A DNA stretch of 64,000 bases from the human T2T-CHM13v2.0 reference genome, Homo sapiens, in assembly GCF_009914755.1 (NCBI RefSeq), contig NC_060929.1. One strand, written 5' to 3'. The notes beneath the pieces were generated by a model. It was given only the letters and a program-made list of their open reading frames with translations, had not been told where the DNA came from and made no database searches. Numbering within the stretch: position 1 is the stretch's first letter; each line of letters opens with the position of its first letter. The position numbers were made by a program, and so were the translations under genes. Shown in pieces: positions 3,747 to 56,149 of this stretch.

Positions 3747-3759
3747 CTAGAGGAATGAA

Positions 3760-11495: not shown

Positions 11496-12176
11496 AATGA
11501 GCCATGTTTTTGTTCAGCTTTAGCAACTAGGCTTGGATATGTTAGAGCCCCCTAATGCCTGGTACAAAGGGGATAATATCTGCAAAATCTGAAGAACTTT
11601 TTCTGTTTCAGAGTATTATATCTCAACAGAATATATGTTGGTGCTATAGTAAAAATTACACTTAAAAAATCAGGTAGCCAAAAGTAGTTTAAAGATTATA
11701 AACTAATCATCTCCAAGATATATTAACATTAGTTCAAAAATTATAAAATAATGAATGATATACTGGAATGTATAAAAACATATGGGTCATTTTAAATATT
11801 TTAAAAAATATAGATGAATTAGATGAAATACAAACGAGCATCTAACATATGTGGCATATTGTTCTGGTTCTTTTTTTAATAAAAGAAAAATAACAATTTT
11901 TATGAAAAGAGACTTCTAAATGTGTGTTTCCCTTAAATTAAAAAAAAATTAAAACATTTCTGTTTTCAGGGATATAAATTGTGATGTATTTGAGCATCAT
12001 CCTTATATAATCAGCACCAGTTTCAAAAATATTTCTAAATTGCAGTCACTCCTTTTAAAAACATCAATAAGCGGGGAAACTTGAATACATTTTTGGGATT
12101 CATTAGTGAAGTTTGGATGCTAATGAAATGCCTATGGGCTCAGCATTTCTCATTTGTTGCTATATTCTCTCCACAG

Positions 12177-12222
12177 GAAAACTGACGGCACACTTAAATT
12201 TGTACATTTTGGAAAATGTTAA
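12177..12222 (+). CDS. SPINK9: SPINK9 exon 4 (K-KTDGTLKFVHFGKC*)
   Basis: CTCTCCACAG acceptor; sixth Kazal Cys then TAA. Spliced CDS is 55+32+128+46=261 nt = 86 aa, matching the SPINK9/LEKTI-2 sequence as I recall it. Confidence 0.97.
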
Positions 12223-12340
12223 ATCTATCTTGTGAGTCCAAAATATCTTTTAATGCATCTATTCACAAGAGTCACATTTCTGTTCCCATATTATCTATGC
12301 CACATTGCCTACTCATCACCATATGTAGATTTCTTTGTAG

Positions 12341-12366
12341 AATAAAGCAGATATAAGGGAAATAAA
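12341..12366 (+). terminator. SPINK9: Tandem polyadenylation signals of SPINK9
   Basis: AATAAA at 12341-12346 and 12361-12366, followed by T/G-rich sequence. Confidence 0.75.
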
Positions 12367-20339: not shown

Positions 20340-23300
20340 ATAATATTCCACAGGAATTATTTCCAATGATTCATTATTTTAAACCTGTTCTAGTGCCATG
20401 ATCGGGGAAACAGTCATTTCTTAATAGAGATGACACATCTAACTAGGACATAATTCAAGCCTTTAATGGGCTAGGTTAATAACAGCAGGTTACTTCTTTT
20501 GCCTCCACCTTTAGCCACTTTCAGCATCATAGAAGCAATAATCTCTCTTGATCCTACCACTTTGATTTATCTTCTGAACTGAGAACCTGAGTCCAAGAAA
20601 TTCTAAGATTCTTTCATCTCAAAAATAAGCAAGTCTATTTTGTTTTTGTTTTTGTTATGCATTTTTCTCTCTCCATCAAGAAATCACTGAATCACACTGT
20701 CTCAGGAGTGGAGTGGAGCATAAAGCTCATCTAACCCAACTTCTTACTGTATAAGAAAGTTTCCTGTGGGATCCCTGAAGGTGATCACAATCCAATCTCT
20801 GCTTTGATGCAACAACTCTCTTGTCAAAACAACAACAACAACAACAAAAAAAAAACCCAGCCCATTATTGACCCGTTTGTTTACAGAATATTCTTACTTT
20901 ATTGAGTAGAAATCAACGTTGATTCAACTCATCATCTGTGACTGACACAAGATTTTAAAGGTTTAAAAATATATCATGCTTTTATCCATTCCATATTTAT
21001 TGAGTACTAAATATGGTCTGGCATTATTTACTAAACTCATCTCTCATGATGATGATGGTCACTTTCCCAGGCCAAGGCCCTTTTTCCTGTGTTCTATTCT
21101 CCCCTCAACCTCTCTCAAAGAGCAACCATAGCATTCCCACACTTGCTGAGCGAATCAACCCTGATAATTATTTTAATTCAAAGCCTTGAAGAGAACCCTA
21201 TTTCAGTGGCACAGACTAATAACTGAAGCAAATAACCATATTTTTTTCAAAAAATGGTTTTTATTTTATTCTAGATGTAAAACGTGTGTCCCAGAGAAAA
21301 TGGTCATTCCACAACATGTAGTATATATTATTTTTATGTAATCTAAAAGTTGGGGTAAATTTTTCCATCTCAAAAATCAAAAGCCCTTTCATATATTTTT
21401 CAACATGTAAAATACATGATTTAGAGTCACCTATCAGAAATATATTTGATATGCCATATAATTTTGTTATGTAGCTAATATTTACCCATTTGAATATCAA
21501 AGCTGGTTTCACTGAAAGTATTTTAGATTCAAATCATTATTAAATGAAGTTAATAGAACATAGTAGCCATACATGTACTGGCTTTAGAGTCAGGCAAAAT
21601 TCTGTTGATTCCCAGCTTTGTCACAATGTGGCTAGAATAAATGACTTTTTCTGGACTTCAGTCTCCTCATTTACAAAATGAAAATAATTATAATACCTGC
21701 CTCAATGGATTGCTAGGAGCTTAAATGCCATAAGTCTTACAAAGAGCTCAACATAGCCCTTTGCACATTGTAAAAATTCTAGGAGGGCTCCCATATTAGG
21801 CCATTCTTGCATTGCTATAAAGAAATACTTGAGACTGGGTAATTTGTAAACAAAAGAAGTTTAATTGGCTCATGATTCTACAGCCTATATAGGAAGCATG
21901 GTGCTGGCATCTGCCTGGCTTCTGGTGAAGCCTCAGGGAGATTTCAGTCATGGTGGAAGGCAAAGCGGGAGCAGAAACATCACATGGTGAAAGTAGAAGT
22001 AAAGGACTGGCGGTGCCACACACTTTTAAAGGACCAGAACTTGTGTCAACTCAGAGCAAGAGCTCACTTATCACTAAGAGCTCACTTATCACTAAGATGG
22101 CCCAAACCATTCATGGGAGATCTGCCCCCATGATCCAAACACATCCCAGCAGGCTTCACCTCCAAGACTGGGGATTACATTTCAACATGAGATTTGGGTG
22201 GGGACAAATACCCAAATTATAGCAACTACCTTGTATTATTACAAAATGGTCATATATGTCTTTACTTACCCATCAAGGGATGAAGAACATGATTTAGCCT
22301 TTCTATTTTGATTCATTGTGAAAATTGTTAATATATTTTAGACAATTCTCATATAAGGCAATAAAAACTTTCAATTAGTGGGCAAGCAACCTAAGCATCA
22401 CACTTAGTTGTCTTTGAGGCTGAGACTTGTAAGTAAAACAGTATAAAATAAGCATACAAATCAAGATTATTGACTTTAAAGTCATAGGGTTGGGCTCAAG
22501 TAATAGGTTCATCAATTAACAGCTATATGATCCTGAAAATTTTACTTAACTTTTCTGTTTTGGTTTCCTTTTCTTTAGGAAAATGTATAGTATTTACCTC
22601 AAAGGATTACAAGAGTTAAGCAGTAACCACATGTAGGGTTTTCAGAGGGCTCCTGGTAGCTGGCCAGTGTTGGATAAATGTCAGCTATTGCCATTTTGTT
22701 TTCCCAAGATGCATGCGTTCTGTAAAAGAAGTGGCAGAGGAGTGTTTGTGAAATGATGAGTAAGTTGGTTTTGAACAATAAGTAGGAGTTTTTTTTCTAA
22801 GCAAGCAATGAGAGGCTGCAAATCGTAGGGATTAAAGTACTTTACCTTGAATTGGGAGCAGTGAGAATTTGACTGGAACTAAAATGAAGTATTTGTCTGA
22901 GGGTTGTGGGTACAGGTTTGGTAGTGGGACTCAAGAGCTCTCCTAGCGCTATGAAGAGCCCTGAGGTAGCTTGGGGTAGTGAAGACCACTCCACAGTGTT
23001 GGAAAAGTCAGCCTCCATCTTGCAGCCACAGCAGCATACATATTGTTAATAGGGAGTTTCTAGCAGGCCTGTGCTTGAGAAAAATTTCTTTCCAGACAGA
23101 AGTAGTAAAAATAATGATAGAAAATACATATAGTCCTTTTTTACATGACAACTACTATTCTAAGTGCTTAATTCATATAAATGCATTTAATGTTCAAAAC
23201 AACTATATGAGGTAGGTACTATTCCCCCATTTTACCTAAGGAAAAGGTCACATAAAGGTTAAGCAATTTGCCCAAGTTTAGGTGAGATTTGAAACCAAAA

Positions 23301-25545
23301 ATTTAGCAGCACAGTCTCTACTTTTAAACACTACACCATACTGCTTCTGCATAGTAGTGAGGTGAAGAGATGCTGAGAAATAAAAAAAGAAAGGAGAGGA
23401 GAGGGCAGCTCTCTGCTGAGTTATGGAGGATGGAGGATGGGTAGAATGAGGAGAGAGAGCAAAGGAGAAAAGTTAGGATATATTTGGAAATTATAATGTG
23501 GATCTAAATAAAATTAGTCAACAGGAGAAAAAAGCAGGGCATGGAAGATTGGAGATAAATTTCAGAAACAGAACTTAAAAAGAGTTGGCAAACTATTTAT
23601 ATGCATGATTAGGAGAACTTAAATATTTAGGATGGTGTTGATGTTTTTGGTTTGGACCATTGCTTACACGATAACGTTATTACTTCTCAGTCAGTTTTCT
23701 ATAAAACTAGGTGCAGAATTTGTTGTCCTTAATGTGTTCCAACCCTTCCTACTTAATGTGCAATGCTGCCTTACATTGTGCAAGAGATTTTGTCATTCTT
23801 GTCTCCACTAGAGTCTGTGGTGGTATTTGGCCAGCATTGTGTCTTATATAATCTCAGAACCCTTCCCAGTGCCTTAAAAACAATAGGGTCACAACATGTA
23901 GAAGAATAAGTAAGTGGTAGGAGCAGGTTGAGAGGAGGAAGACGAATTAAATTTTGGACACCTTAAGTCTGCAGATACTGCAAGATACTCAAGTAGAGAT
24001 GTTTGGCAATTGATTAGAAATTCAGAGTAGGTACTCTGGGATAGTAAAAAATACTGATGGAAATTTTGTAATCATCTGGGTGGATAACTTAAGACAAAAC
24101 TAAATATAATGACTAAAATTTAGCCCTTACTGTTTGTAACACACTATACCAATCCTAAACATGTTTGATTTCTTTTATTATTCCTCACTACAAATACATG
24201 AGATAGATGTGATTAGATCCACATTTTATAAAGAACAAGAGCTTTGAGAAGGTTAGCAATTCACAGAGATTTGCCTCTTTCATTTATCTCATAGGAGGTA
24301 GATAAGACAGGATTTTTTGTACTTACAGTCTGACAGATTTAATTGAAAAATCCAAATCCCTGAAATTAATAATAGCTCAGAACAGTTAATATCCATCATT
24401 TAAAAATATAAAAATATCTTCTTAGAAGAAGCTGTCACTAACAGTGGTAATTTACAAAAGATGACAAACCTATAGGCAAAATCTATTCCAAAAATTAACA
24501 TTTTTGCTCCAAAGTTAAATATATAAAGGGCTTATTTCCTATACTTAAGTTTTAAAGTAAACTTCATTTCAGAGATTTCTTTTAGAATTTAATGTGTCAT
24601 ATGGTCCCTCTAAGGAATAGTATTCTGCTGATGTACAGCAGGTTTAGAAAAATTATGTTGTTTTTCTCATAGCACACGCTGGTTACTAAGATGAGCCAGA
24701 GGATCATAAAATATCCTCTCATCAAATCTATTGCTTCAATTCTTTCCCCAGGAAGCCCACCAAGTTGTCTACCAGGCCACATTACATACTTCTAGTGACA
24801 GGAAACTCACTTTGTCTGTTTGCACAACACATTCCTGAACAGCTCTGACAGCTAGAAAGAGCTCAGATTTTTTGTTCTTATACGTTAAAAATTAGCAAAT
24901 GGTTTAAATGTTTTGCTAAACCTAAGACACTTTCCTTGTGCTAGAAGCCTCAAAGGTGGATATGAAGGATTTATGATATAGACTGAAATTGTCTAATACT
25001 TTCAAAGTGATCATCTCAAAAGACACATTAATACTATATCAAAAAGTTAATAAAATTACAGTCAAATCTGAAGAAGTACATATCCTTCATTTTAATTATT
25101 TGCAAGACATAATATTTGTGAAGAAAAACAAGCATAAAATTTATCTGGCAGTTTATTCAGATCCTCTCACCCTCTACCTACCCCCTGAGAAAACACTAAT
25201 AATCTAGAATAAAAGGAAGCTTCTAAGCTATTTTGATCACCTTGAAAATAAAAATTAATAAAAATGACAAAAGTTATTAATTAAAAGATATTTCTATTTA
25301 ATACATTACATCAGTCGCTAAGATATTATTGGGCTGCAGTCCTTTCCATTAAAATTGACAAGTTGCAAGGAGTCTTCTGAGTCATAATGGTCAAGTGTAA
25401 TGCTAAGAAAATGCTTACAGGCTTAGTATTCAGCATTTGTCTTTCTTTTCATGAAGCACATATTAATGCATGTAAGTGTTTACAAATGGGAAGGTAAAGA
25501 GGTTCTAAAATGTCTTACAGTGCATTCTGAGCACAAGAGGCAATT
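20340..25545 (+). pseudogene. Unprocessed SPINK9-like pseudogene psi-A (four exon remnants)
   Basis: Exon 1 ~20482-20586 (ATG->ATA at 20529). Exon 2 21275-21302 with AG/GT kept. 3' half of exon 3 at 24475-24518 (GKIYSKN*HFCSKV). Exon 4 ~25457-25497, preceded by a 31/41-nt match to SPINK9 intron 3. Intronic L3/L2/MIR fossils are collinear with SPINK9. Confidence 0.85.
21793..22224. mobile_element. MaLR solo LTR (MSTA/MSTB-like)
   Basis: TATTAGGCCATTCTTGCATTGCTATAAAGAAATAC...TTTCAACATGAGATTTGGGTGGGGACAAATACCCAAATTATAGCA. Confidence 0.85.
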
Positions 25546-27361: not shown

Positions 27362-28915
27362 CTAGGTAGTTTTCATATCTTGGCTATTGCAAATGATACT
27401 GTAATGAACATGGGAGTGTAGATATACCTCTGAGATCCAGATTTCAGTTTCTTTAGATACATATCCAGAAGTGGGATAGCTAGATCAAATAGTAGTCCTA
27501 TTTTTAATTTTTTGAGAACTCTCCTACAGCAGATGCACCAATTTCCATTCCCACTAACAATATACAAAGGTTCCAACTTTTCCACATCCTTTCTAACACT
27601 TCTCTTTTCTTTTTGTTTTTTCACTGATAATAGCCATCCTAACAGGTGTGAGATGGTATCTCATTGTGGTTTTGATTTGCATTGCTCTGATAATTAGTTA
27701 TGTTGAGTACCTTTTCACGTACCTGTGGTCCAGTTGTTCCTCTTTGGAAAAAAATGCCTATTCAGGTTATTTTTCCCATCTTTAAACAGGTTATTAGGTT
27801 TTTTGCTATTGAGTTACAGGAGTTTCTTATGTATTTTGGAATTTATTCCTTATTAGATATATGGTATGCAAATATTTTTTTCCTATCGTGTAGGTCACCT
27901 TTAAATTTGTTGTTTCCTTTGCCATGTAGCAGCCATTTAATTTTATTTAATTCCACTTGTCTATTTTCCTTTTTGTTATCTGTGCTTTTAGTACCATTTC
28001 CAATCAATTATTGCCTAGTCCAATGGCTATAAGCTATTTCCCTATGTTTTCTTCTAAGAGTTTTATTGTTTTGTCTAACATTTAACTTTTTAATGTATTT
28101 CAAGTTGACTTGTGTACATGGTGTGAGATAAGCGTCCAATTTTATTCTTTGCAAGTTGATATCTAATTTTCCCTACATCATTTATGAAGGGCATTATCTT
28201 TTCCCCATTGTGTATCCTTGTCATCCTTGTCAAAGATCAATTGACTATATATGTGTGGGTTTATTTCTGGGCTCTCTACTCTGTTCTATCAGACATCAAT
28301 AAATGAATGAATTTTTAAAATGTGCTACATACCACATATATAATGAAATATCATTCAGCCTTTTAAAAAAGAAGGAAATGCTGCCATTTGCAATAACATG
28401 GATGACCTGGCAGACATTATGCTAGTTAAAATAAGCCAGACCCAGAAAGACAAAATATCACATGATCTCACTCACATGTATAAACTAAAATAGCCAAACT
28501 CATAGAAGCAGAGAGTATAATGGTTGTTGTCAGGGAATGGAAGGAGAAGGAAATGAGGAGATGTTGATCAAAGGGTACAAAGTTTCAGTTATGCAAAATA
28601 AGTAAGTTTTAAAGATCTACCTTACAACATAGGGCCTGTGGTTAACAATACTGTATTTTTATATTTAAAATTTTGCTAAGAGGATAGATTTTTATTTTAA
28701 GTGCTTTTATCAGAAAAGGAAAAACAAAAGAAAACAAAGCACACAGTAAAAGGAGGCAGAAGGAAACTTTTGGAGATACTGGATAAATGTATTGCATTAA
28801 TTGTTATGATGATTTCAGAAGTATATACTTATTTATCTTCAAATACACTGTTCTATATTTTAAATATATACAGATATTTATGTCAATCATATTTCAATAA
28901 AGCAGTTTTAAAAAT
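27362..28915. mobile_element. Old L1M (L1MA/MB) with 5' inversion
   Basis: Minus-strand ORF2 3' segment (27362-28290) abuts a plus-strand 3'UTR segment (28292-28915). Confidence 0.8.
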
Positions 28916-30105: not shown

Positions 30106-30440
30106 TAGTTGGCCCTTTATATCCATGGGTTCCACATCCATGGACTCAACCAATTGCATATCAAAAATATTTGGAAAAATAAAAGATGATTATATCTGTA
30201 CTAAACATGTATAGATTATTTTGTTTTTATTCCTTAAACAATATAGTATAATATTTACATTGCATTTACAATGTATTAGGTATTATAAGTAATCTAGAGA
30301 TGTTTTAAAGTATATGGGAAGATGTGTGTAGATTATATGCAAATATTACACCATTTTATAGAAGGGACTTGGGCATCTGTGATTTGGGTATCTGTGGGGA
30401 ATCCTGGAACCAATTCCCCATGGACACTGAGAGACAACAG
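30106..30440. mobile_element. Tigger3-type DNA transposon (non-autonomous)
   Basis: TA-flanked; TAGTTGGCCCTTTATATCCATGGG...CCCCATGGACACTGAGAGACAACAG terminal inverted repeats. Confidence 0.8.
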
Positions 30441-31044
30441 TATTTCTAGCGTGTGTTTTACTACCTTGAATTACTAAAAGGTAATTTAATAATCGACATG
30501 GAATCTCTTGCTTGAATATAATGGGAGTATGGGGATTTGGCTGATATTACCAGGTCACCTCTTTTGAATCCACCTTACCACCATGGTCACCTCAACGCAA
30601 GAGAGTGGCATTTGCCTCCTGTCCCTTTCTCTTTGCCTTTGCCTCTGCCTCTGTCTTCAGTGTATATCTCCCTTCCACCATTGTCATTACCCTTCCCAAG
30701 GCAACAGCAGTCCCTTGAATACCTTCTGTCCACAGAGTTTAGAGATACTGTCGTCTCACAGATGGGTGAGTATACTTTTCAGCTGGAGGGAATTTTGGAA
30801 ATTCATTTCTATGACTATTGAGAAATCTTGAATCATAGAATCACAGCGTCTGAAAAAAGACTATGTAAAGACCTTCTGCTTCAACTTTTCACTCATAAAG
30901 AAATCTTATTCCACATCTTTGAGAGATCATCATTCACCTTTTGCTTCTGTCGCAATAGCCCTGAAGACGAGGTATTAAGGCCTCCATAAGGCAGCTTGTT
31001 TTAATTGTTAGGCATCTTGAGTGTTCAGAAAATCATTCCTTCAA

Positions 31045-31122
31045 GACACCGTGGCTTGCGCCTATAATCTCAGCTACCTGAAAGAGTAGGTGGGAGGACT
31101 GCTTGAGGCCAGGAGTTTGAGA
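31045..31122 (+). mobile_element. Alu monomer fragment (FLAM-like)
   Basis: GTGGCTTGCGCCTATAATCTCAGCTAC...GAGGCCAGGAGTTTGAGA. Confidence 0.6.
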
Positions 31123-31748
31123 AAATTGCTTATTCACTTAATCTTTTAACCCATATAATGTGTCAGGCATTGGGCTAAGAGCCTAAGATGCAATGATAAA
31201 TAGAATAGTCTGTATCTTCAATGAACTCTTTCTGTTGAACCAAAATGCTAAATAATATAGTAAAGTTGGCAAGCTCTGGAGTCAGATTTCCTAGGTTTGA
31301 ATTCCACTGATAACATTTGTTATCACTGTGGCCTTGAGAGAACAATTTAACCATTTTTGCCTCAATCTTCTCATCTGTGTATTGGAGATACTTATATTAA
31401 TAGTAACTACTAACAGAGTTTTTATGAGAAATAATGTAAATGTTAGCTATTTGTCCTAATCTGTGCCTGGAGACCAAAAATGAGCTTTTTATTCTACTTG
31501 AAGGCCCTAAGGAGCTGAAAGACACCTCATGTCTTCCTAAATATTTTCATCTCCATAGTAAATTATCCCAGTTCTTTTATCCATTCATGAGACTTAGTGC
31601 CCAGATCCATCAACATCTTGATCTCCCTAGAGCTTCACTCCAGGTGTAGCATTGGAACTACTCCAAATTTGGTCTGATTGGAGAGTATTTTCCTAACTGG
31701 TCTAGACATTATGCCTTAGAATTTTTTTTTTTGGTTTAGTAGTTGTTC

Positions 31749-34335
<2,587 letters not shown>

Positions 34336-34640
34336 TATATTATATATATGCAGTCTGAGTCATACTCAGAATCTACCAAATAAGAATCTTGAGATTGCTG
34401 GAGCAGAATTAGAAGGCAAACATGTAAATTTTGAAAACCTTTCCCAGAATTACTCATACTAAGTTAATCTTTTTCACATTTGTTTCTTGCAAGAAAAAGC
34501 AGAATGTACTTCCATAGAACTGAATAATAATCAAACCATCAAACAAAACAATGTTAAATCACGCTGTCATACCACAGCGCTACAGCCTGTTAAGGATGAA
34601 ATATTTTCCCCTGGAAGCCTTCTTGGTCTTTGATGGCCTG

Positions 34641-35103
34641 ATGCTATGGTATTGATGTGACTTGTCCCCACCAAAATTCACATTCAAATTTGACCCCCTT
34701 TGTGGTGGTATCGGGAGGTATGGCCTAATGGGAGATGTTTGGATCATTAGAGTGGATACCTTATTAATAGATGAATGCCCTCTCTCAGGAATGGATGAAT
34801 TCTAGATCTCCTGGGAATGGATTAGTTCCCTCAAGCTAGTTATTAAAAAATCTGACTTCCGCAACTTCTCTCACTTGCTGTCTCCCTCAACATGTAATCT
34901 CTTTGCACAAGTTCACTCTCCTTCCATTTTCCACCATGAGTGAACACAGACTGAGGCTCTCCCCAGAAGTCAAGTAAATGCCAGCACATGCCTCTTGAAC
35001 TTGCCAACCTGTAGAACTGTCAGCTAAATAAATCTCTTTCTTTAAAAATTTATAAACCCAACCTCAGGTATTCAGTTATAGCAACACAGAGCAGACTAAG
35101 ACA
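34641..35103. mobile_element. MaLR solo LTR (MSTC/MSTD-like)
   Basis: TGCTATGG...GTCCCCACCAAAATTCAC...GTTATAGCAACACAGAGCAGACTAAGACA. Confidence 0.8.
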
Positions 35104-36937
35104 ACTGGTGACTTTGTCCTAAGTGCCACATGTAAATAGATCATTTGCCAAGTGACTTCATAATGGGGTCTGAGGTTCTCACAATAGAACCGTAGTCTTA
35201 GATTCAGCAAGAGAACTCAGCCTTTAGGAATTTGCTAGAAAACTCTGGACTAAAAAAACTCAGGTGGATGAATCACTTTGTTCCTTATGGAAAAGATGGA
35301 AACATTCGTCATGGTTATCTTGGCTACTGGCTATTTTTCATGTAAGGATTTGTTAAAGAAACTTGGGGAAAGAATAAACATTTGATATTCCAGGGGAAGT
35401 AACAAGCTAACAATAACTGCTTTCTAGATGTTGTAATTTTCGAAACTTTGAGACTTTTCTCAGAGATGAAAAATTCTCTATCTTAAATAGAGTAACTATC
35501 AGCGGTTTAATCCATTTTTAATATTCCAAGAATTCTGCCAAAGATAGCTTCAGAATTGAGATATCTTAAGGAATGATCTATGAAAGTTGTACTCAATATC
35601 TGACTAATAATTTGGCCTTCTAAATTCATAATCAATTTTGGTTCTGCTCCCTCTTTTTCCTAATTATTTGCCATCATACTCTCACACACACTGGTATTTT
35701 GTTGTTAGCCTGTACACAGAAATGCATTCTATGCAAACCAGTGTCAGTTTTTTACATGGCTTACTATTAGGACACCACCAGATGTTATCAAATTCCAAGA
35801 CAGCACTCGACTTTTTCTAATTAACTCCAACAAAATGGCACCAATAAGGTAAGCCCATGTAAGACTCGATCTGCTAGCTGAATGGTGCAGGTTGAATGAG
35901 GAAGCAAGGAGAAAGCTCATCTGCAGTAGCTGAAAGAAGTCAGGGCTCTCAAGTAAAACATCAAATATGAAGGTTAAATACAGTGTTAATAGTTTGGGTA
36001 AACAGATTTTGACACAGAGGTCCCCAGCAAAAGAGGCTTCCTTGTATGCCAGTTGAATTTAGAGAAGGGGTACATTCAAGATGCAATAATCTGAAAACAA
36101 AAGCAGGTATCTAAGATTTCTGTCAGTAAATAACCAAGATGACTATGAAGAATGAAACCTTTCTCTAAAATGAGACTGCATGATGTTTGAACAGCTCAGC
36201 AATGGATGATACTGCTGAGCCCCAGAGGATAATGCTTGGGTTTAAATACCCCCTGCCTAAGGTCAACATTAAACCTAGGAACAGGATAAGGTTGAATTCC
36301 CAGGTAAGACATTAGATGTCTCAGTAGGACATTAAGAAGAAGGAGGAAACAGTGTTTGGGTAACAGAAGACATGGCCAGATATTTTTGTGTGTGAAGAAG
36401 CCACTTATTTTTTCATGACTTTCATGGTTATTAATTTATCTGTGATTACTTAATAGGGCTAGTTAGCTATACACATTTCAACACTGCATTGTTTAATATT
36501 TTATTCTAAACATTTTTATTTCAGATATTTTTGGTAACAATCCTTTTAAGATAAGTTTTCCACTTTCTGCCTAAGAATAATTTTTTTAATCTTAGCCTTA
36601 TAGAATTTCTATTAGGTTGAACATACAAAACTGCGAATATCTGACCGTTTTCAGTCTACATAATGGCAATTTCATATGGCTCAATTTAAATACCTCTGTC
36701 AAAATAGGTCCTGAGAAAATCAGGACACATCTCTGACTCTTACTGCTTCTGCATTCCCTTAGATACCACTGGCAATTCAAGCTCCTAATTTTTGTTTTTT
36801 AATGTATTTTCTTTCCTCTTTGTAACTTCAATACTTTTGCCTAGGTTAAATCCTCCTTGTTACTTGCCCATAGTGTTGTGATATGCATCTAGTGCATCTA
36901 GATACCATCTAGTGGTTTCCTTGCATTTAGTCTGATT

Positions 36938-37132
36938 CAGGAGTTGGCAAACTATTGCCACCTGTTTTTGAAAATACAGTTTCTTGGAACACAGGCACAC
37001 TTTGTTTATATGTTATCTATGGCCATTTTCAAGCTGGTACAGAGCTGGGTTGTTGCAACAGAGGCCAAATGACCTAAAAATTATAAAACATTTACTACCT
37101 GGCTCTTAACAGGAAAAGTTTGCTAACTCCTG
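36938..37132. mobile_element. MER58A-like hAT MITE
   Basis: TIRs CAGGAGTTGGCAAACT / AGTTTGCTAACTCCTG. Confidence 0.8.
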
Positions 37133-39963
37133 CTCTAATCTCTATAACCTTGAGAATGGACTTTCTAAAATCCAAATCTCATTGAGACTTCTCCTTATTT
37201 AAAACAATGACTCTCAGTATTCTCAGGATACATTTTTTGTATGTTTTACAATACCCCCCAACTTAACCCAGCCTCTTTCTACCTAAAAGGATAACTTCCT
37301 TAATAGTTAAACTATTTTGGAGTTCATGCTATTCCAGTTTTGTGTCTTGGTGCATATAATTCCCTCTAATTAAATATCCTTCTTTCTATATACATATTCA
37401 ATTTTCAAAGTCATGTGCATCTCTTAAAAGCCCAGTAAAGCATCTAGTCTTTGGTAAAGTCTTTCCAAGTCTATATCATGTAGGCTAAATCACTAAAACA
37501 GGAGATAAGAGACATACACTGTTTCTCCAAAGAATGATTTGAGTACCTTCTGATAGTATTAATAATAATTTTAGTTAATAGGCCAATGAATCTCTTTCAT
37601 TTCAATAATTGCAGCTGTTCTTTCATCTGTTAGAAAAAATATGTTTACAACTTCAAACCCAAGATATCATGGACATTCACATTTAGGACAAATCTAAGAT
37701 TGGTAGGCAAATTTAATAAGTGAGCCAATTTAAAGCAAAATATTTGTAAAGAAAAATGACACACGAATTTTGAAGGAATCATAAACCAAGTTACTGAAGT
37801 TTGGGAAACACTGCTGTGATGAGAGGCAGTGAAGTCTTACAGCCTGATATACTGGATAAATGGACACACTGTAATCTGAATCACTAGAGTAGGAGACTGT
37901 GGCAGCTCATTCCTAATCTCGTTATATAATAATTACAAACTTTCCAAGCCTCCTCCCATCCACAGAAAAATAATTCTAATATTCAAGGTCCTCTAACTCT
38001 GGTGATACTGAGAAAAGCAAAATAAAATGGGAAGATTTAGGAAAACATAAACCTGGTAGCTTATTATTCCAGAATCCTAATCCCCAGAGGACTAAAGTAC
38101 ACTCAAAGCTAGAGTGGGACCACAAAACACATCCTTTTCCAGGCACCACAGTTAAAAGGGGGAATTTGATGAACCAAAATGATTCCAGAGGAACATGGAC
38201 AGTGCTTATAGTAATTCCCAGACAGTAGTTATAGTCATTTTTCTCATTTCTCAGAATGGTTTCTTTTTATTCTAACAAATTGTAGATATGCGTTACACAA
38301 CCAAGGACCTGGGCTGTACAGCCTCAGTTACCCCACAAGATAGAAACCCCAGCAACCCCAAAGGCTCTGGTTGCTGAACTTAAGATAATATAGTTTTGAT
38401 GCTTGAGGTTTAAAAGATATTTTATCATTATCTCCTCTCTACATAAAGTAAAACACCAGAACACTTATATTAGAAGCCATTAACAGATCATTGCAGGATA
38501 CAAAGTTTGACCTGTGAGTTTCGTTTTAGGTCCGTCAGTGCAGTCATTATCAAAAGAAGTTTACACAACAGAAACATATATGCTCCATGAAAGTCAGCCC
38601 ATTATGTGCATCTAATAACATTATTAATCCTAATTCCTGAGTGTACTGCTTCCTAATATGTAAATGAAAACATGAAACCAAAAATAGAACCCTCTTTTGA
38701 GAATTTAACATGTAACTGACTGCAATCAACTATTTACTGTTTTGGAAAATGTATGTGAATTCCTCAAAATGTGATTCTGTAAACTAAAAAGAAAAAAAAA
38801 GTCACTGAAATCTCAGTTCCACTCACTGAACCTGAGGGAATAGGGGGACAGGCAGTAAATAAACGGGACTTCGAATTCCATCTCCAACTTTAGAAGAGAA
38901 GCCTCCCTTTATCTGTTTTAAACATTAATTTCAACATGGGATTCCATGAAAAAAAAAAAAAAGGTTCTTTTCCTAAAATGTAAATCACAGCTGTAGGAAA
39001 CATTACTTTTTTCAAGATAAGACTAAAATAATAGGTTTCAGCACTTGAGGTCAAAAGCCCTTGGGTTGAATCCTGCTCCTGTGTTTGAGTGATATTGGGA
39101 AGTCTCATAATGCTTCCAAACCTCAAGTTGTCATCTATAAATCTGGAATATTTGGAATGATATTTACTGCTTCACTTGCTACATATGCTCCATCCACATT
39201 ATTGACTCTTCTTTTCCGATATTTTCAAACCTGGAAAGCTCTTTCCTGCTTCAGAAACTTTGGGCAATCTGTCTTCTCCTACAAGAATGTTTTCCCATCC
39301 ACTTCACAGGGCTAATTCTTCTTCATCATTTGGATTTCAGTCTAAATATAACTTCCCACGGATGGATTCCCTGACCATTCTATCTAAAATATATTCACCT
39401 CTGATATTTTTTATGTTAATTTATTTCTATTTCCTTTGTAATACTTGTCATAATGACCATATATTTTAATTTTCTGTTTATTTTTGGTCTATCACCCAAT
39501 GTAAGCTCCATGAAGTCAGAAGGCAGGTTTCTGATTAATTCCTAGCACTTAACACAGTATCTGCACCAAGTAAGACCTCAACAAGTACATTTTGAATGAA
39601 TGAATAATTCAAAGGGTTCTTGGGCAGAATGAATGTGATAGTGGATATAAAACATATTTGTAAACCTAAATCACCCTTTATAGGTAATTTTTTTAAAAAA
39701 ATTCACTACTTATTTTGGCTCAAACTCTCTGAATGGAATGTGGGTTTAAGAATGAAGACTCTGATCCTATAGAACTAGATTGGGACCTCAGCTCTTCTGC
39801 TTAAACTTATGTGACTTAGGGCAGAAAACATAATCTCAGTCATTATCTTAGAGGTTGGCTATGAGGATTGAAAAAGATAATGGATCAAGAGGGCTTAGCA
39901 TAATCCCTGTCACATAGCAAGCCCTTAGTAAATAACAGATGACTGACCTTTGTTGCTACTAAC

Positions 39964-40073
39964 TAGGGGACCAACCATTTCAGTTTTCCATGGACTAAGG
40001 GTTTTCCTAGACATGAGACTTTGCATATTAAAATAAGAAAGTCACAGACAAACCAGAATGGTTGGTCACTCTA
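39964..40073. mobile_element. MER81-like hAT MITE
   Basis: TIRs TAGGGGACCAACCATT / AATGGTTGGTCACTCTA, 110 bp. Confidence 0.7.
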
Positions 40074-40429
40074 TCATAAACACGCCTTTGTACTCAGCCC
40101 CTAGTGCTCCTTCCATATTTCCCAACTCACTCAGACCAGATAACCTATACCATAGTCAGCCTTAGCCAGTACAGCAGTATCTTCCAAATGATCTCAAAAC
40201 CTCATCTGATAGGCCTTCATGTTGTGGTCATAATTCGACGGCATACAAAGGGATTCCATAGAAGGGAGAGAAACTGCATGGATGATTGCTACTTCTTCTC
40301 CCAAATGTTTTATTAGCTAACCACATTTCATCCTTTCTCCAAATCTACTGTCTTACCCTTCTCTGCAATCCCAAGGATTCAGGGAAATAAAAAATAACTC
40401 TCAGTGCTAAAAATGTATTCTTAGGATTT

Positions 40430-41830
40430 AAATTTTAATAGGATAAATAATAAATGTACTCTCTTAAACTATACAATTCAGTGGTCCTTAATATATACAG
40501 AGAGTTGTACAACCATCACTGCTGTTTAACTTCAGAAAAATTTTCATTAAAAAGAAACCTCTACCCCTCTGTCATCTCCCCCACCCCAGTACCTGGAAAC
40601 CACTAGTCTACTTTTTGTCTTTATAGATTTGTCTATTATGGACAATTCATATAAATGGAATCATATAACATGTGGCCTTTTTTGTCTTCTTTCACTTGGT
40701 ATAGATTTTCAAAATTCATCCATGTTGTAGGATGCATCAGTTATTTGTGCCTTTTTATGGCTGAATAATACTTCACTGTTTAGATATATCACTTTTCATT
40801 TATCCATTCATCCATTAATGGACATTGGGTTGTTTCCACTTTTGGCTAGCATGAATAATGTTGCTATGAACATTCATTTACCTTGGGTATAAACCTAGGA
40901 GTTAAATTGCTGGGGTATATGAAAACTTTAACTGAGGAACTACCAAACTGTTTTTCAAATCAGCTGCAGCATTTTACAATCCCAGTAAAAGTATATGAGA
41001 GTTCTAATTTTTCCATATCTTTACCAACACTTGTTATTGCTCATCTTTTTAATGATAACCATCCTAATAGGTGTGAAGTGGTATCATAATCATGAAAACC
41101 ATGGTTATGATTTTCATTTCCCAAAAGATTTAATGATGTTATATATCTTTTCATAGGCTTCATTGAAGAAATGTCTATTCAAATCCTTTGCTCACATTTT
41201 ACTCAGATTATTTACCTTTTTATTGTTAAGTTGTAAGAGTTTTTTATATATTCTGGATACTAGTTCCTTAATGGATGTTGACTTACGGATATTTTCTCTC
41301 ATTATGTGGGTTTCTTTTCACTTTATTAACAGTGTCCTTTGAAGTGCAGGAGATTTTAATTTTATAAAGTACAATTTATCTATTGCTGCTTGTGTTTTTG
41401 GCATCATATCTAAGAAAACATTGCTTAATCCAAGGTCACAAATATCTCCTCTGTTTTCTTCCAAACGTTTTAAGTTTTAACCGTTACATTCAGATCTTTG
41501 ACTCATGTTGAGTTAGATTTGTATATGGTGTGAGGCAGGGAATTCAACTGTATTGTTTTGTATGTAAATACACAGCTATCCCAGCACTGTTCGTTGAAAA
41601 TACTTATCTTTCCTCATTTAATTGTTTTATAACCTTCATTGAAAATCAATTGACCACAAATTTAAGGATTTATTTCTGAACTTTCAATTTTATTCTATTG
41701 GTCTATATGTCTATCTTTGTGCCAATACCACACTCTCTTGATTATTGTAGATTTTCATAGTAAGCTTTGAAGTCAAGAAGTATGGGTTCTTAAAATTTGC
41801 TCATTTTCAGACTGTTTGGCTATTCTGGGT
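40430..41830 (-). mobile_element. Old L1MB/MC fragment
   Basis: Degenerate L1 3'UTR and ORF2 end in antisense. Confidence 0.8.
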
Positions 41831-43506
41831 ACTATCCTCAGGAAGTATTAAACGTATTGTCAAAGAATAATGCATAGATATGTTCTGCACAGTAGTTCTA
41901 AGGGTAAAATACAAAAAAAGATCTAATAACATATAATTAGTTTCTAATAATATAATACATAATTATAGCACATCTATAATTAATACTTTCTGGAAAAGAG
42001 TTAGTAAATGGAATTGTGTCACTGTCTATGGTAATGCTACAAATATCAATGCTCTAATGCCCACTAACTTTATTTGCATGAAAGCCAATATTTTCCAAAC
42101 TTTCCATTTTCCAAATAGTTCTTAGCATCTCCAGACACAATAGTGGAACTCGAGGGAAGTACAGTTTTCTTACGTAAGATCTTCTTTTCCCATTGTTGTG
42201 CTGCCACTTAAATATCCTTGTCCATGATTCTCTGATGTTTACTACACCTCCACCCTACTGCTCAGCTTCTTCTTATTCCAGGTCAGTTGTGAAATCCATT
42301 TTGCTTCCCATGCCCACTATTTCAGAGGGAGTTTATGCATAAGACTGATCTGGTTCCTCAACTTTTCTACTTATCTCTGTTAGCCTGAAGTTGCTTTCTT
42401 CTAAGATTATCAAGGCATTCCAAATGTGTGGCCAGGTCATGTTCATAACAAAGTGAGGGGGACAAGCGTATCTTTACACTAACTGTACATGTGCCTCCCT
42501 CCATCCTTCAAACCCCAGCTCGGGTTCTAACTGGTACTGTGTTTCTGCATCTTGGGGAAGTCAAAGGTTGATCCACTTTAGTGCACCAAATCTCTCTGGC
42601 TTTTTGCTTATAGGCTCATCCTTTTTTAGCGCTATATGATTTAAAAAAAAAAAAACTTCACTAGACATCACCTATTAACTTTTCAAAAAATAATCATGAC
42701 CTAACATTAAGTTTACAAAATGTATCAAATGATGCATATTGTATGATTAAACTTTAAAAAATGTATTTATTGTATATACTCAGAAACATAAAATATTTAA
42801 GAGAATAAATAATGAGGAAACTTTTGAAAACCTACAAATAGGCCTGATTTCAATTTAGTGCTTATTACATACCAAGCTCTGTCCTTGGTACCACATAGAA
42901 ATTATCTCATTCAGTATTCGAAACAATCCTACAAAGCTGAAATTGGCATTACCTTTCATTTTATAGATGATGAAACTGACACTTAGAGAGATTTAGGGAC
43001 CCAAGATATAATTGCTTATAGGGAGAAAAACCAAGAAACAAATCTAGGAATTTGACTCCCAGAGCCTACAAGTTTAAATTCCTATTATCTTATCTTATGA
43101 CTAGAAACTTTTATTTGGACAGAATTTTAGGAGTTTTCAAAACAGGTTCTTATATTTATCCCAAGAATGTTTAATAAACACCTAGAAAGTTCCAGACACT
43201 CTGCTAGGTGCTGAGAAAACAAAATAAAAAATAAGATACTATTATTCTCAAGCTACTACTACAAATAATATATGGTTATAAGCTTACGACAGTTAGAAAG
43301 TACTTTCCCAAACAGGACCCCTGTAAGTACATGGAAGGCAGGGGAGAGATATTTCCTTTTACATATAAAAATGAAGTACTCCAAAGTTGATTGCCTTGCC
43401 CAATGTCAAATAGGAAGTATGTACGGAAGATGAATAATATTCCTTATAACTTCACAGTAGCTCCTATGTGGCTATTGTTAAATTTTTTAAAAATGGGCCA
43501 CTTTTT

Positions 43507-43801
<295 letters not shown>

Positions 43802-44253
43802 TTAGTATAAAATTTAGTATTTTGCTTGGTATTGTTATTACATTTCTGCTGAAGAAGACAGATATTTTTCATTTATGTTTTCTACACTCCTGAGTTTATC
43901 CTGTTCTTAACCATTATGGTCTTTGCCCCAGTAATGCGTATGCTTCTTGTATTATGGTCTTTGTCTCAATAATAAGTATTCTTGAAGTTCATAGAGCATA
44001 TCCAAAGTGATCCTCAAAACAGCCTATTTCCAAAGTGATCCTCAAAAGAGCCTATCTCAGTCGGTATCCATCATTATGGTCATTTTATCAACAAGGTAAT
44101 TCTGATTCAGAGAAGTGAAAAGATTTTCCCAAGGTACCTTATCAATTTATTGATTTCCTCATGCTCTACTTTTTAACATACAGGTTTACACATTCGTTAA
44201 AAGCTCTAATAATGTTTTGCCATGATTACAAATCAGAAGCATCTCCAGGGTGA

Positions 44254-44532
<279 letters not shown>

Positions 44533-45134
44533 TAGGCCGGTCAAGAAAGATTATATTTCATTTTAATGGTTTGTAAATATTTATATCAATTTCTCTTAGA
44601 GCTTTGAATCTCACTCTCAACATTCAATACCATGGAAAATGCAGAAAGTCCCCTGCATCTTGAATATGAAGTGATTTTTCTTTGTTTTTCATGAATGAAA
44701 CCATTTGAAATAAGCATCATCTCTCATTCATAAAGTAGAATTCATTATATTACCTTATTTTTTAAAGAAAAGCAATAAATCTTATCTTATGGAGAGTTCC
44801 TCTTTGACTCGAGATATATTTAATTACATACATCAGAACTGTTTGGTTCTAGAAATACAGAGCTGAATAGGAAGTAACCCCTGACATTGGGCAATTCACA
44901 GTCTAATCAGCTAACTGGACAATTCAGTCACTTACTCACTAAATACTCTTTAAGTACTTATGAGATTGGGAGACTTGTCTAGACTCAGTCTTCAGTGGTC
45001 ATCAAAACAGGTTTGTGCACTCATGCACTTTACAGTCCAGTGAGGGAGCAATAAAACAAAAGATTATTAAACAATATGATAAAATGTGAGAAGGAGTAAA
45101 ACAACCCATGGCATGCAGAAGCTTGCCTTAGCAT

Positions 45135-46763: not shown

Positions 46764-47215
46764 ATGAGGTACATTAGACATTTTGATACAGGCATACAAT
46801 GCATAATAATAACATCAGGGTAAATGGGATATCCATCACCTCAAGCATTTATCCTTTCTTTGTGTTACAAACAACCCAATTATGTAGTTATTTTTAGATG
46901 TACAATAAATTATTGTTGACTGTAGTCACTCTGCTGTGCTATCAATACTAGAGCTTACTCATGCTATCTAATTATATTTTTGTACCCATTAACCATCCCC
47001 TCTTCCCTGCCCCCAATACTCTTCCCAACCTCTGGTAAACATTATTCTACTCTCTATCTCCATGAGTTCAATTGTTTTAAATGTTAGCTACCACAAATGA
47101 GTGAGAACGTGCATAATTTGTCTTTCCGTGCCTCGTGTATTCCACCTAACATAATGACCTTGAGTTCCATCCATGTTGTTACAAATGTCAAGATCTCATT
47201 CTTTCTTATGACTTT
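46715..47215 (-). mobile_element. L1MA (MA2/3-like) 3' end
   Basis: TTTTTGTGGGTAC...GATACAGGCATACAATGCATAATAA...CATCACCTCAAGCATTTATC. Confidence 0.85.
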
Positions 47216-54255: not shown

Positions 54256-56149
54256 TAGGTACCATAATGTCTATTTTAAAGAAACCTGAACCTTAGAGCT
54301 GAAGTGATTGCCCATTGTCTCTCTGCCAGTAAGCAGAGGAACTCACAGTTAACCAAGTCTTTCTGGTTCTAAAGCCTGCATTGCTGACTACTAAATACAC
54401 AACTTCTCAGTCAAAACAGCTACAATAGTTTTTTTTTTTCCTTTTTACCTTCAAAAAAAATCCTGTATTTGAATTCATAGTGGAGTTCTGCCATATACGC
54501 CAAGTCTAAGGGTAGTTAAGAATAGCCTTGATATGCATAGCACCTTCTGCAGTTGTGCACTGAACAGGCTCCATAGCCATATGAACCTGTCCTGAGCAAA
54601 CTCCAACCACTATCCCTGACCAAAACTTCTCTTGAGTATTAGTCATCATTTTAACAAAGGGATTATCTGTTGTTTAGGTACCTAAGGAATTTCAAGGAAG
54701 AACACGGGCTGATACTAGAACTCATGGAAGAATGAAAAGAGATACTTTAGAATTTAATTAAAAAGTGGGGATTGAAAATTAAAACAACACAGCGGTTTAA
54801 GGTCATTTACTGTAGGGCAAACTTTCCTGCAGCGCTCAGGGACCCCATGATGGTGCCACTGTACAGGAGAAATACTAACTCAGGACCTTTTTAATGAAAA
54901 CCTGTAACATCAAGGTACAAATAAATCCTAGAGATGAAGGGATACATATAACATGCTCTACCTGAAAATGTTAAAACTAGTTTTGATATCTTATTATATA
55001 TAACACTCATAGCAGTGAGAAAATATCTTTAACATTTATTACAATGATTTGTGGTAGGAAATTTTCTAAACTTGAGGTAGGAAACCTTTCTTACTCATGA
55101 GTATTCATTTCAGGTCCCACTACAGTGCTTTTTACAAAAGGAGGAATGCTAATAAAATGAAAATCATATTCCATTGAATTAAAAATTCAGGCCAATTGTG
55201 CTGAAATAAATCTTACTGAATGCCTTCTAAATATGCCATGCCCTGCACTAGAAACTTTCGTAATTCCTATTTATTCTTCAGAATAACCTGGGAAACAGAA
55301 AAAGCTAAAGTCTGTTTCCTTTATTAAAGTTTGAATATGAAGAAACCGACAGAAGCAAATAGCATAAAAATTCATTTTTGTCTTCAATTACAGGAAGAAT
55401 GTAACATGAAAGCTGAGATTACAATGAATAGTACATGAATATGATGAGGTTTTGTTTTGTTTGTCCTACCAGAGCTCCAAATAAAAACACAGATATATGG
55501 TTTGACATACGGAATGGGATAGCTAAAACTGTGACTGCCTAAGACAAGCTGAAACCTAAGGTGCCGAACCATATTGGGGAAAGAGGGGAAAAACCAGTAG
55601 GTCTGCTATCAATCAAGAAAAGAATAAGAAGAAATGGGATTCCCAAGCCTTCTTCAGCTTTTTCTTCTCCAGCAGAATAGCCTAGTCAATGCTACGTCTT
55701 GTCAAATTGTGTCTCACATGGCTTTAATGCACACTAACTTTCCTAAGAAGTATTTGTATCTATTTAAATCTAGGGATTTTAGCCCATATTAATTACATGT
55801 ATATTAGGGCAAGAACACAGGATGTAAAAGGTAAAAATCTGAATTTCAGTCCATCTGCGAGACATTGTGAAAATCAATTACACTCTCTGAAGACAATTCC
55901 TTATCCATTAAACAACAGAAAAGGTGATTAAGTTGATCCTTGCCTACATGTCAGAGTCGTGTAGAGTTTTTAATGACACTCATGTGAAATTCCTTTGGAC
56001 TGTAAAATACTATTACTTACGTGCAAAGATAATGTCCCGAAATCACAGAAGGGATGACTTAACATTAACATCTTTAACTGCGCCCCCGTCCTTCCTCTCA
56101 AAAAAAAAAAGTTCTCTATTTTTAGTTGAATGATTCTGGGAAAATCTCT

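What the first reader, a model, noticed from the sequence alone, without database searches (positions are those of the whole stretch)
30510..38865. Third SPINK unit (psi-B): a divergent Kazal gene broken up by transposons
Seen: CTTGAATATAAT TATA region (SPINK9: CTTGAAAATATATAA). Exon 1 AAG-AGA-GTG-GCA...GTCTTCA|GTGTATATCTC vs ATG-AGA-GCA-ACA...ATGTTCA|GTGAGTATCTC, still hydrophobic (KRVAFASCPFLFAFASASVF). Exon 3 remnant IICHHTLTHTGILLLACTQK (35663-35722) keeps SPINK9's 13-residue Cys I-II spacing; after an apparent deletion of the PxCGxDG segment it continues FYANQCQFF (35727-35753). Exon 4 AACTGACTGCA...TTTTGGAAAATGT (38714-38752) vs AACTGACGGCA...TTTTGGAAAATGT, acceptor CAG->CAT, AATAAA at 38858. 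A weak exon 2 candidate (TTTCTTGCAAG...GCAGAATGT) is at ~34485-34530. Inference: the reactive loop C-T-Q-K differs from SPINK9's C-H-H-M, suggesting a different ancestral protease target.
Basis: partly seen in the sequence, partly recalled or inferred. Interest (0 to 1): 0.8.

Follow-up and report, generated by a model that had tools for sequence, protein, structure and literature searches.

The report
Dead Kazal inhibitor gene beside SPINK9
The interval does hold a dead Kazal protease-inhibitor gene, but it is a fairly well-kept four-exon pseudogene of a different Kazal family that is still intact in other animals, lying beside a separate small SPINK9-like promoter relic, and not a SPINK9 copy shattered by transposons.

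Summary
Partly confirmed, re-interpreted.

Its translation finds 8 short Kazal proteins, 56-73% identical, among 1.84 billion representatives. These map colinearly onto four + strand exons:
- 35287-35341, start ATG intact
- 36525-36556
- 38539-38659
- 44600-44663, with AATAAA at 44774

Exon sizes and phases are SPINK-like, and a read-through is 53 of 90 identical to P0125. Lesions: exon 2 donor TT, TGA at Cys IV, a 1-nt gap near the end of exon 3.

Searched with P0125, the human genome's best match is this broken exon (65%); SPINK9 follows at 36%. So this is an unprocessed, probably unitary, pseudogene of a separate Kazal family.

The L1 (31722-33835) lies between relic and gene. The family's name (Spink10 or Spink11 type?) could not be tested.

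The parts
30415..30670 (+). SPINK9-type promoter and exon-1 relic ('psi-B' proper): TATA-like box 30510-30521, AAG in place of ATG at 30599-30601, hydrophobic leader, GT at 30660
   Evidence: blastn vs SPINK9 E 1.2e-6 and vs psi-A E 4.7e-6. Top of 766 windows. 0 of 1000 shuffles vs either paralogue. Three-way alignment.
31722..33835 (-). Young 5'-truncated LINE-1-like insertion, with its T-run at 31722-31735. It lies between the relic and the pseudogene.
   Evidence: 14,048 first-look candidates genome-wide. The 39 long matches among 41 non-self rows are 95-96% identical. Open frame of 647 aa, 31984-33927, minus strand. Masked in NCBI's file at 31712-33905. The name L1 is my reading; no repeat library was on hand.
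35287..35341 (+). Pseudogene exon 1, coding part: intact ATG, signal peptide, 55 nt as in SPINK9, donor T|GTAAGG
   Evidence: tblastn E 2e-4 (P0122), 4e-3 (P0125), 1.1e-2 (P0127), all at this place. 3 of 3 leader peptides have their window-wide best hit here; 0 of 60 shuffled windows reach any of them. Sequence.
36525..36556 (+). Pseudogene exon 2: 32 nt as in SPINK9, acceptor TTTCAG kept, donor reads TT where GT is expected
   Evidence: The P0121 peptide has its window-wide best hit at 36521-36556, 8 of 12 identical, 0 of 60 shuffles. The other 2 of 3 peptides (P0127, P0125) hit elsewhere at chance level. The acceptor flank aligns in register with SPINK9 exon 2. Sequence.
38539..38659 (+). 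Pseudogene exon 3, the Kazal core: Cys I-III and V kept, loop C-S-M-K. It has two in-frame acceptors (TTTTAG before 38530, CAG before 38539), a 1-nt gap after 38652 and donor GTAAAT.
   Evidence: phmmer vs 1.84e9 representatives: 8 short Kazal relatives 56-73% identical, E 1.3e-10 to 1.2e-7. Own-family profile 57.3 bits. Pfam Kazal_1 15.6-16.7 bits, below the cut-off of 21. PDB: 4 of 4 hits are Kazal. SPINK9-family profile 11.3 bits, 0 of 100 whole-window shuffles.
38638..38640 (+). TGA where all relatives have Cys IV
   Evidence: The own-genome search reports '1 TGA' inside the match.
38714..38752 (+). Status open.
   Evidence: Score 17 vs SPINK9 12180-12219. 1 of 1000 local shuffles. Top of 766 windows, but only 2 points above the next. 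It is not the best hit of the relatives' C-terminal peptides.
44600..44663 (+). Pseudogene exon 4, coding part: acceptor TCTTAG, Cys VI in a G-K-C motif, six more codons, TGA at 44661-44663
   Evidence: tblastn E 0.059 (P0125) and 0.12 (P0121). 2 of 2 C-terminal peptides have their window-wide best hit here, 0 of 60 shuffles. Sequence.
44774..44779 (+). AATAAA about 110 nt after the stop
   Evidence: Read directly.
35663..35753 (+). It lies in intron 1 of the pseudogene.

Best explanation
The interval holds two separate relics of the SPINK tandem array.

(a) 30415-30670 is the promoter and first exon of an old SPINK9-type unit. No other part of that unit can now be recognised.

(b) 35287-44780 on the + strand is an unprocessed pseudogene with the classic four-exon SPINK layout: signal peptide, short linker, Kazal core, C-terminal strand with Cys VI. 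It belongs to a Kazal family distinct from SPINK9.

By inference from the Kazal family, the ancestral product was a small secreted single-domain inhibitor acting by the standard mechanism: a rigid loop after Cys II sits in the protease active site like a substrate. In 8 of 8 relatives the loop reads C-S-I-R, so P1 would be Ile by the usual Kazal numbering (recalled). That points to an elastase- or chymotrypsin-like target rather than a trypsin-like one.

In man the gene is dead:
- the exon 2 donor reads TT;
- the Cys IV codon is TGA, which cuts the chain before three of the six cysteines;
- one base is missing near the end of exon 3;
- positions invariant in the relatives have drifted (I-R to M-K in the loop, V-T-Y to I-I-N).

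No intact copy was found elsewhere in this human genome, so it is probably a unitary loss.

Shown: the exons, the lesions, the family tie, and the absence of an intact human copy within the search's reach. Inferred: the mechanism, the target class, the unitary status, and any name for the family.
For: - Exon 3's translation has 9 hits at E<=1e-3 among 1,835,955,588 representatives. Eight are 79-125 aa proteins, 56-73% identical over about 39 residues.
- All 8 pass Pfam Kazal_1 (25.9-45.5 bits, cut-off 21).
- Their other parts map in order on the same strand. Exon 1: 3 of 3 peptides. Exon 4: 2 of 2 peptides. Exon 2: 1 of 3 peptides. Each hit is the window-wide best, and 0 of 60 shuffled windows reach it (tblastn E-values).
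- Exon lengths of 55 and 32 nt equal SPINK9's. Acceptors AG, AG, AG and donors GT, (TT), GT flank the exons.
- With N at the 1-nt gap, the read-through is 273 nt in one frame. It is 53 of 90 identical to P0125, 45 of 70 to P0121 and 47 of 69 to P0127.
- The own-family profile gives 57.3 bits at 38536-38655, against 20.7 for SPINK9's exon 3.
- Searching the whole human genome with P0125, the best of 13 matches is chr5:148900536-148900655 (65%, E 6.2e-11, 1 TGA). Next is SPINK9 exon 3 (36%, E 0.009).
- For relic (a).
Against: - Exon 2 rests on one relative's peptide. The other two peptides find nothing.
- The genome-wide Pfam Kazal_1 scan (85 matches at E<=10) does not list this exon. Alone it stays under the Pfam cut-off.
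- Only 2 of 8 relatives (P0121, P0125) carry a complete 49-position Kazal domain. The other six end in aberrant tails. They may be faulty gene models or decaying genes, so 'intact elsewhere' rests on two predicted proteins of unnamed origin.
- Neither names nor gene order in other species could be seen, so orthology and unitary status are inferred.
- One haplotype (T2T-CHM13) was read; whether the lesions are fixed is unknown.
- The SPINK9-like 39-mer at 38714-38752, 54 nt after exon 3, is not explained by this model.
Confidence: 0.85

Rival explanations
1. One reading: one SPINK9-derived unit from 30510 to 38865, with exon 1 at 30599, exon 2 near 34485, exon 3 at 35663 and exon 4 at 38714, its introns stretched by transposons.
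For: The promoter and exon 1 relic is real. The 38714 piece resembles SPINK9 exon 4 (1 of 1000 local shuffles). An L1 and four older repeats lie in between.
Against: Exons 2 and 3 of this model are at chance level with no Kazal signal. The only Kazal exon between 30.7 and 38.7 kb belongs to another family and has its own exons 1, 2 and 4. No SPINK9-family profile hit lies between 30.7 and 35.2 kb.
Confidence: 0.04
2. Relic (a) and gene (b) form one transcription unit. The 30.5-kb promoter and exon would be an upstream alternative first exon of the pseudogene, much as SPINK9 itself has a far-upstream start in the RefSeq table.
For: Same strand, 4.7 kb apart. The donor GT is kept at 30660. Two relatives (P0121, P0128) carry unrelated N-termini that suggest alternative first exons in their gene models.
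Against: Those alternative N-termini find nothing at 30.4-30.7 kb. The relic is homologous to the coding first exon of SPINK9 and psi-A, not to a non-coding leader. The pseudogene has its own ATG exon of the canonical 55 nt.
Confidence: 0.08
3. The 35.3-44.8 kb gene is not dead in man. The lesions would be private to this haplotype, or bypassed by the other in-frame acceptor or other splicing.
For: ATG, 5 of 6 splice sites, 5 of 6 Cys codons, the stop and AATAAA are all kept. Only one genome was read.
Against: Three independent disabling changes, plus drift at positions invariant in 8 of 8 relatives (loop I-R, V-T-Y). There is no gene row here in the RefSeq table supplied.
Confidence: 0.03

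Closest known systems
SPINK9 (LEKTI2), the live neighbour at window 8069-12362
   Same: Same strand and same array. Same four-exon plan, with 55-nt and 32-nt coding parts in exons 1 and 2. 13 residues between Cys I and II, and 7 between II and III. A shared C-S-H-Y start of the domain.
   Different: Only 32-36% identical in exon 3. Loop C-H-H-M against C-S-I-R in the relatives and C-S-M-K in man. G-S-D-G replaced by A-S-N-N. Introns, exon 1 and exon 4 are not alignable at DNA level.
Rodent Kazal genes without a human counterpart (Spink10; also Spink11)
   Same: Mouse Spink10 is said to have 'no known human ortholog' (PMC10291479, passage read). It lies on mouse chr18 at 62.82 Mb (PMC4295473, table passage) and marks cauda epididymis principal cells (PMC7426093, passage). 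From recall only, Fbxo38 and Htr4 are its neighbours, which would match this pseudogene's place next to FBXO38. The Atlas lists a 'Kazal-type 11-like' cluster among the nearest three to P0125 (0.92).
   Different: No mouse sequence could be brought in, so identity with either gene is untested. The Atlas scores do not separate it from 'ovomucoid-like' or 'Kazal-type 13' (all 0.92).
psi-A (window ~20386-25542) and the Kazal relic upstream of the window (chr5:148856731-148856856)
   Same: Dead units of the same array, on the same strand.
   Different: psi-A is colinear with SPINK9 through its introns at 59-65% identity but keeps only the second half of exon 3. The present pseudogene keeps all four exons but shares no alignable intron with SPINK9.

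Membership tests
Kazal-type serine protease inhibitor domain (Pfam PF00050) | Profile score at or above the curated cut-off (21 bits) | tested here: not met
   Human exon 3 alone scores 15.6 bits (38533-38664) and 16.7 bits (38539-38652). It is not among the 85 genome-wide matches at E<=10. All 8 of 8 relatives pass. The exons could not be sent joined, so the whole domain was not scored.
Kazal-type serine protease inhibitor domain (Pfam PF00050) | Six cysteines with Kazal spacing | tested here: not met
   Cys I, II, III, V and VI codons are kept with family spacing. Cys IV is TGA at 38638-38640. It is a relic of a Kazal domain, not a working one.
SPINK gene architecture | Four exons: leader (55 nt coding), 32-nt linker, core ending in phase 2, C-terminal exon | tested here: met
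   55, 32, 121 (+1 missing) and 64 nt give 273 nt in frame. Splice signals are read.
   57.3 bits on its own family's profile against 11.3 on the SPINK9-family profile. None of 120 SPINK9-like proteins stands out (scores 55 +/- 8, top 75). The tree is unresolved.
Unprocessed pseudogene | Introns kept, with disabling lesions | tested here: met
   Introns of 1183, 1982 and 5940 nt. Donor TT, TGA and a 1-nt gap.
Unitary pseudogene | No working paralogue in the same genome | tested here: met
   Own-genome search with P0125: best hit is the broken exon itself; next is SPINK9 at 36%. The search works exon by exon and scores only the best candidates.
Unitary pseudogene | Intact orthologue at the syntenic place in other species | not testable with these tools
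   The relatives come from a library without names or context. No other mammalian genome is on hand.

The most novel reading that the evidence does not exclude
This is the human grave of a Kazal inhibitor gene that other mammals still use, most likely the rodent epididymal Spink10 or Spink11 type. It was lost on the primate line by point lesions and is not annotated in RefSeq. If so, the SPINK7-FBXO38 stretch once held at least five units, of which man keeps one (SPINK9). Human male-tract or epithelial proteolysis would then lack an inhibitor with an unusual Ile-Arg reactive site. The kept ATG, splice sites and AATAAA would also allow a spliced non-coding transcript antisense to FBXO38-DT.
Probability: 0.4. 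Interest if true: 0.45.

Novelty: new member of a known kind. Interest (0 to 1): 0.35.

Why it matters
It corrects the map of a medically relevant inhibitor cluster; SPINK5, 7 and 9 control kallikreins in skin and oesophagus. Between SPINK9 and FBXO38 lie not just faded SPINK9 copies but the remains of a separate family member with a distinct reactive loop.

If the loss is specific to primates or to man, this is a clean case of a lineage-specific loss of a secreted protease inhibitor. It would explain why a rodent Spink gene 'has no human orthologue', which bears on using mice to model SPINK biology.

As a class of object, an unprocessed pseudogene in a birth-and-death array is ordinary.

Tried and rejected
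1. Plain and sensitive blastn of SPINK9 against the interval gave only the promoter and exon 1 and, weakly, exon 3. No intron is colinear.
2. An exon 2 candidate of my own at 38247-38323 (psi-A flank 5 of 1000 shuffles, SPINK9 188 of 1000) was dropped once the relatives placed exon 2 at 36525.
3. My first reading of 'intron 3 cut down to 54 nt, with exon 4 at 38714' was dropped for the same reason.
4. Own-genome searches with the exon 3 translation and with the relic DNA found only themselves.
5. The search for homologous proteins with the exon 3 translation found no candidate by shared words. Searches seeded with SPINK9 gave only SPINK9-like proteins, none close to this exon.
6. A tree of 68 exon-3 rows was unresolved, with an end branch of 8.7 changes per column for the human relic.
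7. The psi-A-downstream similarity 27530-28289 vs 40961-41698 (63.7%, E 1.5e-62) looked like a shared duplication unit. It is an interspersed repeat with 10,918 first-look candidates genome-wide.
8. Naming the family failed. The two Atlas calls give only generic Kazal neighbours. A motif search of papers found 0 papers.
9. Paper searches found nothing describing a pseudogene here:
   - SPINK9 + pseudogene + SPINK7: 0 papers
   - SPINK + gene cluster + pseudogenes + Kazal + gene duplication, at least 4 of 5 terms: 27 papers, none relevant in the listing
   - SPINK10P, SPINK11P, SPINK12P or SPINK9P: 0 papers
   - 'unitary pseudogene' + Spink: 2 papers, both irrelevant in the listing
10. Rfam found 0 matches in the window. 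Tandem Repeats Finder found only a (TTA)n run inside the L1 tail.

Full report
WHAT WAS CLAIMED. It comprised a promoter and exon 1 at about 30.5 kb, a weak exon 2 at about 34.5 kb, an exon 3 remnant at 35663-35753 and an exon 4 at 38714-38752, with introns swollen by transposons and a reactive loop C-T-Q-K.

CHECKING THE PIECES AGAINST SPINK9. I cut SPINK9 (exons at 8069-8178, 8932-8963, 10988-11115, 12177-12362) into pieces. I scanned each over 766 windows of 300 nt on both strands, leaving out SPINK9 itself.
- Promoter and exon 1: the best hit in the whole window is 30451+ (score 26; mean 9.9, sd 1.7). psi-A at 20401+ follows (20).
- Sensitive blastn gives 7948-8189 vs 30415-30670 (61.7% of 264, E 1.2e-6) and psi-A 20386-20511 vs 30454-30576 (63% of 127, E 4.7e-6).
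- 0 of 1000 dinucleotide shuffles reach either score.
- A three-way alignment puts the TATA-like hexamers and the CCAGGTCAC start region in register.

SPINK9 exon 3 aligns to 35560-35860 with score 12, in a different register, and 187 of 1000 shuffles do as well. The translation of 35663-35755 finds no Pfam family and no PDB chain at E<=10. The exon 2 candidate scores below most shuffles (963 and 862 of 1000).

A REAL KAZAL EXON THAT WAS MISSED. The window-wide best hit of SPINK9 exon 3 is at 38401+ (score 20, next best 16). The alignment is 10982-11128 vs 38524-38670 and includes the acceptor and donor flanks. 0 of 1000 shuffles reach it. Further support:
- The frame reads a Kazal core with 13 residues between Cys I and II, 7 between II and III, and TGA where Cys IV belongs.
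- Pfam Kazal_1 gives 15.6 bits (E 0.017, under the cut-off of 21).
- All 4 of 4 PDB hits at E<=10 are ovomucoid or pancreatic Kazal inhibitors.
- A profile built from 78 SPINK9-like proteins and run over the six-frame window gives SPINK9 exon 3 83.9 bits and this exon 11.3 bits. Everything else scores 1.4 bits or less. 0 of 100 shuffles of the whole window reach 11.3; their maximum is 6.5.
- Against this, the genome-wide Pfam scan (85 matches at E<=10) does not list it.

IT IS NOT A SPINK9 COPY.
- Word-seeded protein searches found nothing close, and a tree was unresolved.
- The exhaustive phmmer search of 1.84 billion representatives gave 9 hits at E<=1e-3. Eight are proteins of 79-125 aa, 56-73% identical to the human exon over about 39 residues (E 1.3e-10 to 1.2e-7). 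The ninth is a 491-aa multi-Kazal protein at 25%.
- The eight share a loop C-S-I-R-V and A-S-N-N where most Kazal domains have G-S-D-G.
- All 8 pass Pfam Kazal_1. Only P0121 and P0125 cover the full 49 positions; the other six end in odd tails.
- A profile of the canonical parts of seven of these proteins (P0122 left out) scores the human exon at 57.3 bits and SPINK9's own exon 3 at 20.7.

THE RELATIVES REDRAW THE GENE. tblastn of the eight proteins against the window, and a peptide-by-peptide test against shuffled windows, place the exons as follows.
- Exon 1, 35287-35341. All 3 of 3 leader peptides have their best hit here and 0 of 60 shuffles reach them. E is 2e-4, 4e-3 and 1.1e-2.
- Exon 2, 36525-36556. 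1 of 3 peptides (P0121, 8 of 12 identical) hits here, with 0 of 60 shuffles. The other two peptides find only chance hits elsewhere.
- Exon 3, 38539-38659.
- Exon 4, 44600-44663. Both of 2 peptides hit here, with 0 of 60 shuffles. E is 0.059 and 0.12.

Read directly:
- ATG at 35287, 55 coding nt, then T|GTAAGG.
- TTTCAG|, then 32 nt, followed by TT where GT is expected.
- CAG|TGC opens exon 3. A second in-frame acceptor lies 9 nt upstream.
- GTAAAT follows 38659.
- TCTTAG| opens exon 4. Then come Cys VI in G-K-C, six more codons, TGA at 44661-44663, and AATAAA at 44774.

The 55 and 32 nt equal SPINK9's, and the exon 2 acceptor flank aligns in register with SPINK9's. With N at one missing base after 38652, the four exons give 273 nt in one frame. 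That read-through is 53 of 90 identical to P0125, 45 of 70 to P0121 and 47 of 69 to P0127.

LESIONS.
- The exon 2 donor is lost.
- Cys IV is TGA.
- There is a 1-nt gap.
- Positions invariant in all eight relatives have drifted.

NO LIVE HUMAN COPY. Searching the whole assembly with P0125 gives 13 matches at E<=10. The best is this broken exon (65%, E 6.2e-11, 1 TGA). The second is SPINK9 exon 3 (36%, E 0.009). The RefSeq table supplied has no gene row here. The locus lies in an intron of FBXO38-DT, on the other strand.

WHAT LIES BETWEEN.
- 31722-33835 is a high-copy element. There are 14,048 first-look candidates, and the 39 long matches are 95-96% identical. It has a 647-aa open frame on the minus strand and a T-run at its low end. 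I read it as a young 5'-truncated L1; that name comes from recall, not from a repeat library.
- Older repeats lie at 31044-31123, 34188-34338, 34642-35103 and 36956-37140, and at 40961-41698 in intron 3.
- The L1 sits between relic and gene, so 'broken up by transposons' is not what killed the gene.

THE LEFTOVER. It resembles SPINK9 exon 4, with one exact 13-mer and one 7-mer at nearly the same spacing. 1 of 1000 local shuffles reaches its score. Over the whole window, though, such a score is expected by chance about once every two windows. It may be chance, or an old duplicate of an exon 4. I leave it open.

NAME AND HISTORY.
- Papers say mouse Spink12 is the putative orthologue of SPINK9 and that Spink10 has no known human orthologue (PMC10291479, passages).
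- Spink10 lies on mouse chr18 at 62.82 Mb (PMC4295473, table passage) and marks the cauda epididymis (PMC7426093, passage).
- That Fbxo38 is its neighbour is my recollection only. The Atlas could not name the family.
- A 2026 review states that the human genome contains SPINK10-12 (PMC13639018, passage). The own-genome search gives no support for an intact member of this family.
- In SPINK9-seeded searches, several mammals show two or more SPINK9-like proteins on contigs of the same length. That fits a birth-and-death array but was not followed up.
- No paper describing a pseudogene at this place was found.

VERDICT. The object is an ordinary kind of thing, an unprocessed and probably unitary pseudogene next to an older promoter relic.

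Noticed in passing
window 20386-25542 (+): psi-A is colinear with SPINK9 through promoter, exons and introns at 59-69% identity. Only the second half of exon 3 is recognisable (24475-24521).
   Followed up: partly
L003:4731-4856 = chr5:148856731-148856856, about 5.2 kb before the window start: A further Kazal exon-3 relic lies between SPINK7 and SPINK9, inside the RefSeq span of SPINK9. It scores 24.4 bits on Pfam Kazal_1 in the genome scan and 11.6 bits on the SPINK9-family profile, has a stop inside, and is followed by GTAAAG.
   Followed up: partly
window 39212-39295 and 55432-55605 (+): The odd C-terminal tails of two relatives match human DNA downstream of exon 3. P0126 matches at 53.6% over 28 aa (E 4e-5) and P0127 at 39% over 61 aa (E 1.2e-6). 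Either these are alternative 3' exons in other species or their gene models run into conserved non-coding DNA.
   Followed up: no
window 38660-38691 and about 38800-38839 (+): The tail of P0129 reads like a translated intron 3. It matches the human sequence just after exon 3 and again about 110 nt further on, skipping the stretch that holds the SPINK9-exon-4-like piece and an A-run at 38787-38802. That stretch might be an insertion.
   Followed up: no
window 30583-30831 (+): The relic carries an ATG in a strong start context (ACCACCATGG) in another frame. It opens about 82 codons through the old leader (stop-to-stop ORF 30568..30831). In the alignment it falls opposite TTGG of SPINK9, so it is probably accidental.
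   Followed up: no
literature: A 2026 review (PMC13639018, passage) lists SPINK10, 11 and 12 as human genes. Another paper (PMC10291479, passage) says Spink10 has no known human orthologue and treats Spink12 as the SPINK9 counterpart. The two statements conflict.
   Followed up: partly
window 27530-28692, 40961-41698, 46892-47208, 3748-4135: Copies of old interspersed repeats give long 64-70% matches between the flanks of the SPINK units. They can be mistaken for parts of the duplication unit.
   Followed up: yes
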